64,000 nucleotides of DNA, from NCBI RefSeq assembly GCF_055900595.2, contig NZ_CM148325.1; one strand, 5' to 3'. Of this stretch, positions 38,634-38,981 are shown piece by piece. A model generated the notes under the pieces. That model searched no databases. It had not been told where the DNA came from and saw only the letters and a list, made by a program, of their open reading frames with translations. How positions within the stretch are numbered: the first letter of the stretch is position 1; every line of letters begins with the position of its first letter. Both the position numbers and the translations under genes were made by a program.

Positions 38634-38715
38634 TTGTGATGTTGACCCTGTTATACTTTAGGTTGTGCTTTCCATTCACTAAAATTACGCGGATAATTCT
38701 TTCCTGAAAGAAATT

Positions 38716-38733
38716 ATCCTACACCTGTAAGAA
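38716..38733. promoter_or_regulatory. EvgA-box-like 18-bp inverted repeat (ATCCTACA-CC-TGTAAGAA) upstream of ydeP
   Basis: Close to the EvgA consensus as I recall it (TTCYTACA-N2-TGTARGAA); ydeP is a known EvgA target. Confidence 0.5.
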
Positions 38734-38981
38734 AATCCGCGCACAATTGAAGTCAGAGTCTTATTTTATATATTGAAAAGTATGTTAACTTAAAGACTAT
38801 GAGAGATGATGCTTAACTTATCGCATTTATACTATTCTGTTATGTGACGATAATGAGTTAAAAATAGAATGAGAGTAGCCCCCTACTCTCATATATCCAA
38901 ATGGCCGATAAACCCATTATATATACTGCGCATCATCGCTATTACAAATCCTAATAATTCATTTCCACACAGGATAAGCTG

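What the first reader, a model, noticed from the sequence alone, without database searches (positions are those of the whole stretch)
38690..38750. EvgA-box-like repeat upstream of ydeP nested in a larger GCGCGGAT...ATCCGCGC symmetry, with a matching box upstream of safA
The 18-bp box at 38716-38733 and its counterpart at 41380-41397 share the core CCTACA-N2-TGTAAGAAA followed by TCCGC. The ydeP copy is additionally flanked by inverted GCGCGGAT / ATCCGCGC arms, which suggests a more extended regulatory architecture than the minimal box.
Basis: partly seen in the sequence, partly recalled or inferred. Interest (0 to 1): 0.25.

Follow-up and report, generated by a model that had tools for sequence, protein, structure and literature searches.

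The report
Known EvgA promoter boxes; flanking symmetry incidental
These are the already-known binding boxes of the acid-stress regulator EvgA in front of the E. coli genes ydeP and safA; the extra GC-rich "mirror" arms around the ydeP box are real but look coincidental, because only the downstream arm belongs to a conserved promoter segment.

Summary
The window carries the E. coli ydeQ–ydeP–safA–ydeO locus. They match the EvgA consensus TTCYTACA-N2-TGTARGAA with 1 and 2 mismatches and share an exact 23-mer pattern.

The arms are only partly as described. In this window the left arm reads ACGCGGAT, so the repeat is 7 bp (CGCGGAT 38688-38694 / ATCCGCG 38735-38741). The 8-bp version belongs to the common K-12-type allele.

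Several results argue against a functional symmetry:
- The arms' dyad lies 10 bp from the box dyad.
- A flanking repeat of this length arises by chance with p of about 0.05–0.24.
- No other EvgA promoter has such arms, safA included.
- Arm variants in E. coli are never compensated.
- A divergent lineage carries a 12-bp insertion between left arm and box.

The right arm is explained differently. It is the start of a promoter module that ydeP and safA share in register from the box to an extended −10 (38/60 identical). The box centre lies near −74.5.

A weaker lead: six EvgA promoters show half-site-like elements at +20 and +42 from the box start, which recalls BvgA. The +20 element is the right arm.

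Verdict: already known; low interest.

The parts
38716..38733 (+). EvgA box of the ydeP promoter (ATCCTACA-CC-TGTAAGAA). The weaker half is distal and the consensus half is proximal to the promoter. Inferred position is -83 to -66, centre -74.5.
   Evidence: One mismatch to TTCYTACANNTGTARGAA. Conserved in all E. coli alleles and in L004, except for the N2 spacer and the outer left bases. The position relative to the start site comes from the 178-nt K-12 leader.
38688..38694 (.). Left arm CGCGGAT (7 bp in this window; GCGCGGAT in K-12-type alleles), at about -111 to -105.
   Evidence: (I11). Variants are GTGCGGAT, GCGCGGAA and ACGCGGAT, none compensated. No counterpart exists in other EvgA promoters.
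38735..38741 (.). Right arm ATCCGCG, at about -64 to -58. It overlaps the flank shared with safA (TCCGC 38736-38740) and the invariant CA (38742-38743).
   Evidence: ATCCGCGC is present in 89 of 90 sampled sequences. CA at +26/+27 is invariant in six EvgA promoters.
38734..38791 (+). Promoter module shared in register with PsafA. It comprises AATCCGCGCA (38734-38743), TGAAG (38748-38752), AGTCTTATTT (38757-38766) and the extended -10 TGtTAACTT (38783-38791).
   Evidence: 38 of 60 positions are identical to safA in register; 0 of 100,000 shuffles reach this (max 30). Shared positions change less between lineages (9/152 against 18/88, p=0.0008). TGnTA..TT is conserved in three lineages of both promoters.
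38799..38799 (+). Inferred ydeP transcription start (box start + 83).
   Evidence: Transferred from K-12, where the ydeP 5' leader used is -178 relative to the start codon (PMC11210196). This places the extended -10 at -16 to -8. Not measured in this strain.
38691..38719 (.). Allele-specific near-palindrome GGATAATTCTTTC-CTG-AAAGAAATTATCC. It includes TTCTTTCC·TGAAAGAA, an EvgA-box-like 16-mer that lacks the 2-bp spacer. Absent from K-12-type alleles.
   Evidence: I5, I12, D2. The alignment shows six substitutions clustered at 38699-38714 relative to K-12. This allele is in only 17-18 of about 5,320 complete genomes.
38982..41261 (+). ydeP coding sequence (759 aa), the regulated gene.
   Evidence: ORF list. 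Annotation of the identical record NZ_CP098223.1.
41380..41397 (+). EvgA box of the safA-ydeO promoter (CGCCTACA-GC-TGTAAGAA).
   Evidence: Two mismatches to the consensus. Conserved in K-12 and L004.
41398..41455 (+). safA copy of the shared module. It comprises ACTCCGCTCA (41398-41407), TGAAG (41412-41416), AGTCCTATTT (41421-41430) and the extended -10 TGtTATATT (41447-41455). The predicted start is about 41460-41463. No inverted partner for TCCGC exists upstream.
41509..41706 (+). safA coding sequence (65 aa), followed by ydeO at 41781-42542.

Best explanation
The finding is the EvgA-dependent promoter of ydeP, together with its sister promoter in front of safA-ydeO.

Mechanism, inferred from family knowledge and the literature: phosphorylated EvgA is a NarL/FixJ-type response regulator. 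A dimer binds the 18-bp imperfect palindrome at 38716-38733 and recruits sigma-70 RNA polymerase. The core promoter has an extended -10 (TGtTAACTT, 38783-38791) and no recognisable -35. The box centre lies about 74.5 bp upstream of the start, near 38799.

The GC-rich right arm (ATCCGCG) is conserved because it is the first segment of a roughly 60-bp stretch between box and -10. PydeP and PsafA share that stretch in register, and it evolves slowly.

The left arm is a 7-8-nt complement that happens to lie 40 bp upstream. The arms are not a functional pair, so the 'larger symmetry' is incidental.
For: Locus and site identity:
- The locus is ydeQ-ydeP-safA-ydeO.
- The boxes match the EvgA consensus, as do the boxes I located upstream of emrK/evgA, frc, yfdX and yegR in K-12.
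- The literature states that EvgA activates ydeP and binds the safA-ydeO promoter, and that an EvgA site is found at all directly regulated genes.
- evgA is present in 5,398 of 5,426 E. coli genomes.

Against a functional pairing of the arms:
- The arm dyad is 10 bp from the box dyad.
- The chance probability is 0.05-0.24 for 7 bp and 0.013-0.07 for 8 bp.
- safA has the TCCGC flank but no inverted partner.
- No other EvgA promoter has TCCGC or a left-arm equivalent.
- Among 90 sampled sequences the left arm is GCGCGGAT in 82, GTGCGGAT in 5, GCGCGGAA in 2 and ACGCGGAT in 1. The right arm is ATCCGCGC in 89 and TTCCGCGC in 1. No change is compensated.
- The left arm is as polymorphic as its surroundings: 2 of 8 columns, against 4 of 21 and 14 of 50 nearby.
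- Lineage L004 has a 12-bp insertion between left arm and box, and its right arm reads ATTCGCGC.

For the shared promoter module:
- PydeP and PsafA are identical at 38 of 60 positions in register; 0 of 100,000 shuffles reach this, and other EvgA promoter pairs reach at most 28.
- Shared positions change less often between lineages (p=0.0008).
- The extended -10 sits at the same offset in both promoters and agrees with the 178-nt ydeP leader.
Against: - The 8-9-bp K-12 version is less likely by chance (p about 0.01-0.07).
- The core CGCGG of the left arm, with about 15 bp upstream of it (TCCATTCAC-AAAATT-), is retained in all three deep lineages although the 25-37 bp between it and the box diverge. 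This island may have a function of its own.
- As single-stranded RNA the 71-nt segment folds much better than shuffles: z -3.2 here and -6.1 in K-12.
- I could not read the primary footprinting papers, so the exact limits of EvgA protection at PydeP are unknown to me.
- The transcription start is transferred from K-12, not measured.
Confidence: 0.72

Rival explanations
1. BvgA-like array. After the primary EvgA dimer binds the box, further EvgA dimers occupy weak sites about every two helical turns towards the -35 region. On this reading the right arm TCCGCGCA (box start +20 to +27) is the upstream half of the first secondary site, and GTCTTATT (+42 to +49) is the next. The left arm remains irrelevant.
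For: I scanned offsets -40 to -8 and +18 to +62 in both orientations with a half-site matrix built only from the primary boxes. Averaged over four independent EvgA promoters (ydeP, emrK, yegR, frc), two peaks stand out, at +20 and +42. Both are in the left-half orientation, with mean scores -0.69 and -0.81 against a null of -9.96 ± 2.55. Bonferroni-corrected p values are 0.023 and 0.031, and the next best score is -4.27. CA at +26/27, TC at +43/44 and T at +48 are invariant in six promoters. Seven columns are invariant across the four independent promoters against 1.99 expected, p=0.0026. EvgA's relative BvgA binds a strong site furthest upstream plus sequence-poor sites every 22 bp down to the -35 (PMC7250471).
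Against: Only four independent promoters were available. The ydeP and safA versions themselves score poorly (-3.6). No right half-site accompanies either element. A full dimer centred at +50.5 would sit at about -32.5 and collide with sigma. The elements could instead be alpha-CTD or sigma contacts, or relics of common ancestry of the promoters. I found no published evidence for multiple EvgA dimers in the searchable library.
Confidence: 0.15
2. The arms are the base of an RNA (or single-stranded DNA) stem-loop. This could be a 3'-end structure for read-through transcripts of the upstream ydeTSRQ fimbrial operon, or a hairpin that forms during replication.
For: The predicted fold has the arms as a closing stem: -13 kcal/mol with z -3.2 here, and -25.8 kcal/mol with z -6.1 in K-12. 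The arms are kept while the interior changes in sequence and, in L004, in length. Two variants (GTGCGGAT, and ATTCGCGC in L004) would keep G·U pairs on the + strand. One natural strain, NS-NP030, has a 61-bp deletion between AATTG direct repeats that sit exactly at the foot of the stem. This pattern is expected for hairpin-assisted slippage.
Against: No U-tract follows the stem, and the terminator scan finds nothing on the + strand there. Much of the fold energy comes from the EvgA palindrome and allele-specific inner palindromes. The window's own variant (A·C) breaks a pair on the + strand. Any transition gives a wobble on one strand or the other, so 2 of 3 is uninformative, and there are no double compensatory changes. 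No Rfam family matches. There is no evidence that this stretch is transcribed.
Confidence: 0.08
3. The arms are a true dyad operator for a second, unidentified dimeric regulator. It would bracket the EvgA box, either occluding it or looping it out.
For: The arms are GC-rich 8-mers in a 34% GC spacer. The 8-bp form is present in 91% of sampled E. coli sequences. ydeP and safA are known to be subject to additional negative control by YdeO and PhoP.
Against: The 40-nt spacing becomes 52 nt in L004. There is no compensation. safA shares the same negative regulators but has no left arm. The left arm is as polymorphic as neutral-looking neighbours. I could find no convincing match to a known operator motif by eye; CRP, FNR, Fur, the GAD box and sigma-54 were considered.
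Confidence: 0.05

Closest known systems
EvgA box of the E. coli K-12 ydeP and b1500 (safA)-ydeO promoters. This is the 18-bp inverted repeat TTCPyTACA-N2-TGTAPuGAA, which from my own knowledge was defined by Masuda & Church 2003 with binding studies by Itou et al. 2009. Neither paper is held in the library, so I did not re-read them.
   Same: Same genes, same position and same core sequence. The K-12 boxes are AGCCTACACCTGTAAGAA and TGCCTACAGCTGTAAGAA. From the right half of the box to beyond the -10, the window is almost identical to K-12.
   Different: The window carries a rare allele of the ydeQ-ydeP spacer, found in 17-18 of about 5,320 complete genomes. Its left arm is ACGCGGAT instead of GCGCGGAT, its box starts ATCC instead of AGCC, and six clustered substitutions upstream of the box create a new palindrome.
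BvgA-activated promoters of Bordetella (Pfha, Pptx). They have a primary inverted-heptad site furthest upstream and further head-to-head dimers every 22 bp, with the last one abutting the -35 (PMC7250471).
   Same: EvgA/EvgS is the E. coli counterpart of BvgA/BvgS (the sensors are compared as relatives). The strong palindrome lies far upstream (centre about -74.5) of a promoter with no -35. Weak half-site-like elements recur at +20 and +42 from the box start.
   Different: No experimental evidence for secondary EvgA dimers was found. The half-site arrangement differs: EvgA has TTCYTACA-N2-TGTARGAA, while the Pfha primary site is TAAGAAATTTCCTA. Only one half of each putative secondary site resembles the matrix.
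Other EvgA-regulon promoters in K-12 (emrK/evgA, frc, yfdX, yegR).
   Same: All have an 18-bp box with 0-3 mismatches. A -10-like hexamer lies 70-71 bp downstream of the box start. CA is found at +26/27 and TCYKATT at +43-49.
   Different: None has the A-N-TCCGC flank or a complementary upstream arm. That flank is specific to the ydeP/safA pair.

Membership tests
EvgA box (operator of the EvgS/EvgA regulon) | 18-bp imperfect inverted repeat TTCYTACA-N2-TGTARGAA | tested here: met
   38716-38733 has 1 mismatch and 41380-41397 has 2. These are the only matches with up to 3 mismatches in the 64-kb window. The consensus form is recalled from the literature and agrees with the boxes found at emrK, frc, yfdX and yegR in K-12.
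EvgA box (operator of the EvgS/EvgA regulon) | Lies upstream of a gene shown to be directly activated by EvgA | tested here: met
   The downstream genes are annotated ydeP and safA-ydeO in the identical record and in K-12. Papers state that EvgA activates ydeP and binds the safA-ydeO promoter.
EvgA box (operator of the EvgS/EvgA regulon) | Same geometry relative to the core promoter as other regulon members | tested here: met
   A -10-like hexamer lies at box start +70/71 in six promoters. The K-12 ydeP leader of 178 nt puts the start at +83.
EvgA box (operator of the EvgS/EvgA regulon) | Bound by phosphorylated EvgA (footprint or gel shift) | not testable with these tools
   Wet-lab experiment. 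The primary papers are not held in the library.
EvgA box (operator of the EvgS/EvgA regulon) | Cognate regulator encoded in the same genome | tested here: inconclusive
   evgA is not in the window. It is present in 5,398 of 5,426 complete E. coli genomes, but I did not check the strain that matches the window.
Extended palindromic operator (arms as part of one symmetric protein-binding site) | Arms share the dyad axis of the core palindrome | tested here: not met
   The arm centre is 38714.5 and the box centre is 38724.5.
Extended palindromic operator (arms as part of one symmetric protein-binding site) | Recurs at other sites of the same regulator | tested here: not met
   safA has no inverted partner for TCCGC. 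emrK, frc, yfdX and yegR lack both arms. The matrix scan shows no conserved element upstream of the box.
Extended palindromic operator (arms as part of one symmetric protein-binding site) | Complementarity and spacing kept in orthologues | tested here: not met
   There are four single-arm variants and none is compensated. L004 has a 52-nt gap instead of 40 nt and a mismatch.
Extended palindromic operator (arms as part of one symmetric protein-binding site) | More than chance | tested here: inconclusive
   p is 0.054-0.24 for 7 bp and 0.013-0.073 for 8 bp.
Intrinsic terminator / structured RNA element | GC-rich stem directly followed by a U-tract, or a match to a described RNA family | tested here: not met
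   No + strand terminator-like site was found at 38680-38760. There was no Rfam match at E up to 1 in 38000-42000.
Intrinsic terminator / structured RNA element | Covariation supporting the stem | tested here: inconclusive
   Only single transitions are seen, with no double changes. The fold z-scores are -3.2 and -6.1.
BvgA-type multi-dimer activator array | Strong primary site furthest upstream and weaker sites about every 22 bp towards the -35 | tested here: inconclusive
   The primary site is centred at about -74.5. Half-site-like peaks at +20 and +42 have corrected p of 0.023 and 0.031, based on four promoters.
BvgA-type multi-dimer activator array | Cooperative occupancy by several dimers | not testable with these tools
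   This needs FeBABE or DNase footprinting with EvgA~P.

The most novel reading that the evidence does not exclude
EvgA-activated promoters may be built like BvgA-activated ones. One strong palindrome would lie at about -74.5, followed by weak half-site-like elements at box start +20 and +42, roughly every two helical turns. Further EvgA subunits, or RNA polymerase alpha or sigma, would contact these. The 'right arm' TCCGCGCA of PydeP and the TCCGCTCA of PsafA would then be the local version of the +20 element. PydeP and PsafA would be duplicated copies of one such module.
Probability: 0.2. Interest if true: 0.4.

Novelty: already known. Interest (0 to 1): 0.15.

Why it matters
ydeP and safA-ydeO are the entry points of the EvgS/EvgA acid-resistance cascade that lets E. 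coli survive stomach acid. Their EvgA boxes are textbook features of that network, so re-finding them adds nothing new.

Showing that the flanking symmetry is incidental spares experimenters a mutagenesis study aimed at the wrong bases. The comparison points them instead to the asymmetric segment between the box and the -10. That segment holds TCCGC-N-CA, TGAAG, AGTCYTATTT and an extended -10, which the two promoters share and which evolves slowly. If the +20 and +42 elements prove to be real contacts, they would give EvgA a BvgA-like promoter grammar. That would interest specialists in two-component regulation but is not a major surprise.

Tried and rejected
- **Primary literature.** Masuda & Church 2002/2003, Eguchi 2007 and the Zhang & Wang 2023 review are not held. 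Full-text searches for 'EvgA box' and for the motif strings found no description of footprints. The consensus therefore rests on my own knowledge plus the K-12 boxes I located.
- **Orthologues outside E. coli.** The species-representative scan returned only two Escherichia-type loci with the boxes: L003, a mislabelled MAG with the K-12-type allele, and the divergent L004. Edwardsiella YdeP is 85% identical, but in the one locus read (L005) it sits in a different context, and none of these loci has a box match. No E. albertii or E. fergusonii locus was retrieved.
- **Alternative ydeP core promoter.** TTGAAG-16-TATATT (38747-38774) was rejected. Its -10 is not conserved in L004 or at safA. The extended -10 at 38783-38791 is conserved in register in both promoters and fits the 178-nt leader.
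- **Promoter reading of the left arm.** TTTCCA-17-GATAAT (38669-38697) was rejected. The -35 is weaker in K-12 and the GATAAT is lost in L004.
- **Gapped local alignment with the box masked.** The score of 20 equals the shuffle mean. The similarity is only convincing when the register is fixed by the box.
- **Motif comparisons by eye.** I compared the left-arm island with CRP, FNR, Fur, GAD-box, sigma-54 and PhoP motifs and found nothing convincing. No tool was available to test this.
- **Shared 10-mer.** AAATTGCGCG / CGCGCAATTT lies upstream of both boxes, on opposite strands. It is absent from K-12 safA and was judged to be chance.
- **Antisense promoter.** I looked for one feeding the minus-strand terminator-like hairpin in the ydeP leader and found none.

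Full report
**What the window holds.**
ORFs and annotation of an identical public record place the finding between ydeQ (37719-38633) and ydeP (38982-41261). ydeQ is the last gene of a fimbrial operon. After ydeP come safA (41509-41706), ydeO, ydeN and ydeM, all on the + strand. The 701 bp around the finding are 100% identical to E. coli Z0117EC0005. Only 18 of 5,327 matching complete genomes are at least 99% identical there. About 5,300 carry a K-12-type allele at 80-90% identity.

**Checking the observation.**
- Both boxes are at the stated coordinates. ATCCTACACCTGTAAGAA (38716-38733) has one mismatch and CGCCTACAGCTGTAAGAA (41380-41397) has two mismatches to TTCYTACANNTGTARGAA. These are the only matches with up to 3 mismatches in the window.
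- The longer shared pattern CCTACA-N2-TGTAAGAAA-N-TCCGC occurs exactly twice and never in 100 shuffles.
- The arms are not quite as written. The left one reads aCGCGGAT, so the perfect repeat is 7 bp, CGCGGAT 38688-38694 / ATCCGCG 38735-38741. The 8-bp GCGCGGAT/ATCCGCGC is what K-12-type alleles have.
- The arms' centre (38714.5) is 10 bp from the box centre (38724.5). The box lies between them but does not share their symmetry.
- In dinucleotide shuffles of the flanks, a perfect flanking repeat of at least 7 bp appears in 5% (±30 bp) to 24% (±50 bp) of trials. For at least 8 bp the figures are 1.3-7.3%.

**Is the symmetry conserved?**
I compared three sources:
- nine further alleles, from complete E. 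coli genomes plus the two Escherichia-type loci L003 and L004 of the species-representative scan;
- 86 metagenome contigs retrieved with a pattern that does not touch the arms, of which 84 were usable;
- a divergent lineage, L004, whose YdeP is 95% identical.

Among 90 sequences the left arm is GCGCGGAT in 82, GTGCGGAT in 5, GCGCGGAA in 2 and ACGCGGAT in 1. The right arm is ATCCGCGC in 89 and TTCCGCGC in 1. No sequence has a compensating change. Within K-12-type haplotypes the left arm has 2 polymorphic columns of 8, like its neighbours at 4/21 and 14/50. L004 has GCGCGGAT, then 52 instead of 40 nt, then ATTCGCGC. So neither complementarity nor spacing is maintained.

One caveat remains. CGCGG and about 15 bp upstream of it (TCCATTCAC-AAAATT-) persist in all three deep lineages, while the stretch between it and the box diverges. 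I cannot explain this island.

**Is it a feature of EvgA sites?**
I located the boxes of emrK/evgA, frc, yfdX (two boxes) and yegR in K-12. None has the TCCGC flank or an upstream complement. At safA the TCCGC flank has no inverted partner.

**What the right arm really belongs to.**
With the box fixing the register, PydeP and PsafA are identical at 38 of the 60 positions downstream of the box. No shuffle out of 100,000 exceeds 30, other registers reach at most 25, and other EvgA promoter pairs reach at most 28.

The shared blocks are A-N-TCCGC-N-CA, TGAAG, AGTCYTATTT and TGnTAnnTT. All are kept in K-12, the window allele and L004. Positions shared by the two promoters change less between lineages than unshared ones: 9/152 against 18/88, one-sided p=0.0008. 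The comparisons are partly non-independent.

A paper on CsrA used a ydeP leader running from -178 to the start codon (PMC11210196). In K-12 that start lies 83 bp after the box start. This puts TGtTAATTT (TGtTAACTT here, 38783-38791) at -16 to -8 as an extended -10. It puts the box centre at -74.5, the right arm at about -64 to -58 and the left arm at about -111 to -105. The safA promoter has TGtTATATT at the same offset. The transfer of the start site to this strain is an inference.

**How it most likely works.**
- Shown here: the sequence features and their conservation.
- From the literature: EvgS phosphorylates EvgA at mildly acidic pH. EvgA activates ydeP and safA-ydeO, and binds the safA-ydeO and emrKY promoters. 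PhoP and YdeO lower safA expression.
- Inferred: an EvgA~P dimer on the box recruits sigma-70 polymerase to an extended -10 promoter that lacks a -35. The conserved segment between box and -10 carries the contacts needed for this.

**A lead beyond the finding.**
Aligned on the box, six EvgA promoters share CA at +26/27, TC at +43/44 and T at +48. Four independent promoters have 7 invariant columns against 1.99 expected in random registers, p=0.0026.

I built a half-site matrix from the primary boxes alone and scanned all offsets in both orientations. It peaks only at +20 and +42, both in the left-half orientation, with corrected p of 0.023 and 0.031. In ydeP the +20 element is TCCGCGCA, which is the right arm.

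BvgA, the Bordetella counterpart, binds a strong upstream site and then sequence-poor sites every 22 bp down to the -35 (PMC7250471). An EvgA array of this kind is possible but rests on four promoters and has no binding data.

**Rival readings.**
An RNA or single-stranded DNA stem-loop is suggested by fold z-scores of -3.2 here and -6.1 in K-12. It is also suggested by a natural 61-bp deletion in strain NS-NP030 between AATTG repeats at the foot of the stem. Against it, there is no U-tract, no Rfam match and no covariation.

A second dyad-binding regulator is not excluded. It is disfavoured by the variable spacing and by the absence of a left arm at safA.

**Verdict.**
The boxes are the known EvgA sites of ydeP and safA. 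The larger symmetry is real in sequence but most likely incidental. The true extended architecture is the asymmetric downstream module shared with safA.

Noticed in passing
L063 1445-1739 (NZ_AP024126.1, E. coli NS-NP030), corresponding to window ~38686-38746: A natural 61-bp deletion removes the left arm, the EvgA box and the right arm. The junction reads CACGAAAATTGAAGCC, between two AATTG direct repeats that sit at the foot of the inverted repeat. ydeP should have lost EvgA control in this bovine strain. The pattern fits hairpin-assisted slippage.
   Followed up: partly
window 38869-38892 (minus strand), inside the ydeP 5' leader: A terminator-like hairpin lies on the minus strand: ATGAGAGTAGGGGGCTACTCTCAT followed by TCTATTTTT. 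The stem is conserved in K-12 and L004. In this allele two substitutions lengthen it from about 7-8 to 10 pairs. On the + strand it is a stable stem-loop in the ydeP leader. No antisense promoter and no Rfam match were found.
   Followed up: partly
window 38691-38719: The rare allele of this window has six substitutions clustered at 38699-38714 relative to K-12. They create a 29-bp near-palindrome and TTCTTTCC·TGAAAGAA, an EvgA-box-like 16-mer (13 of 16 matches) that lacks the 2-bp spacer, centred 20 bp upstream of the real box.
   Followed up: partly
K-12 loci L054 (emrK, frc, yfdX), L055 (ydeP, safA), L056 (yegR); window 38742-38743, 38759-38765: Six EvgA-activated promoters aligned on the box share CA at +26/27, TCYKATT at +43-49 and a -10-like hexamer at +70/71. 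frc and yfdX also share CTCTCTGATT at the same offset. safA and emrK share CTATAAG at -18 to -12.
   Followed up: yes
window 41275-41305: A perfect 12-bp hairpin (TTCTTCTGCTGT, loop CATCCGC, ACAGCAGAAGAA) lies 14 bp after the ydeP stop codon and is conserved in K-12. It is probably the ydeP terminator, although the simple scan did not call it because the T-tract is weak.
   Followed up: no
window 33949-36600: The fimbrial usher gene upstream (ydeT) is an intact 883-aa ORF here and in the matching strain. In K-12-type records it is annotated as an N-terminally truncated pseudogene.
   Followed up: no
L003 (JARKOR010000108.1, labelled Candidatus Nanosynbacter MAG): This contig carries the E. coli ydeP-safA locus with the K-12-type promoter allele and a YdeP 99% identical to the window's. 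It is almost certainly E. coli contamination of the MAG.
   Followed up: no
L005, L006, L008 (Edwardsiella anguillarum, piscicida, hoshinae): Edwardsiella species encode YdeP at 85% identity. In L005, the one locus whose upstream sequence I read, the genomic context differs. None of the three loci has an EvgA-box match. This suggests horizontal transfer of the gene without its E. coli regulation.
   Followed up: partly
one metagenome contig among L065-L144 (haplotype beginning CTACTTATCACCTCCGTC...): The sequence upstream of CCATTCACGAAAATTGCGCGG is replaced by unrelated DNA. This is a rearrangement or insertion whose junction lies just upstream of the conserved island containing the left arm.
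   Followed up: no
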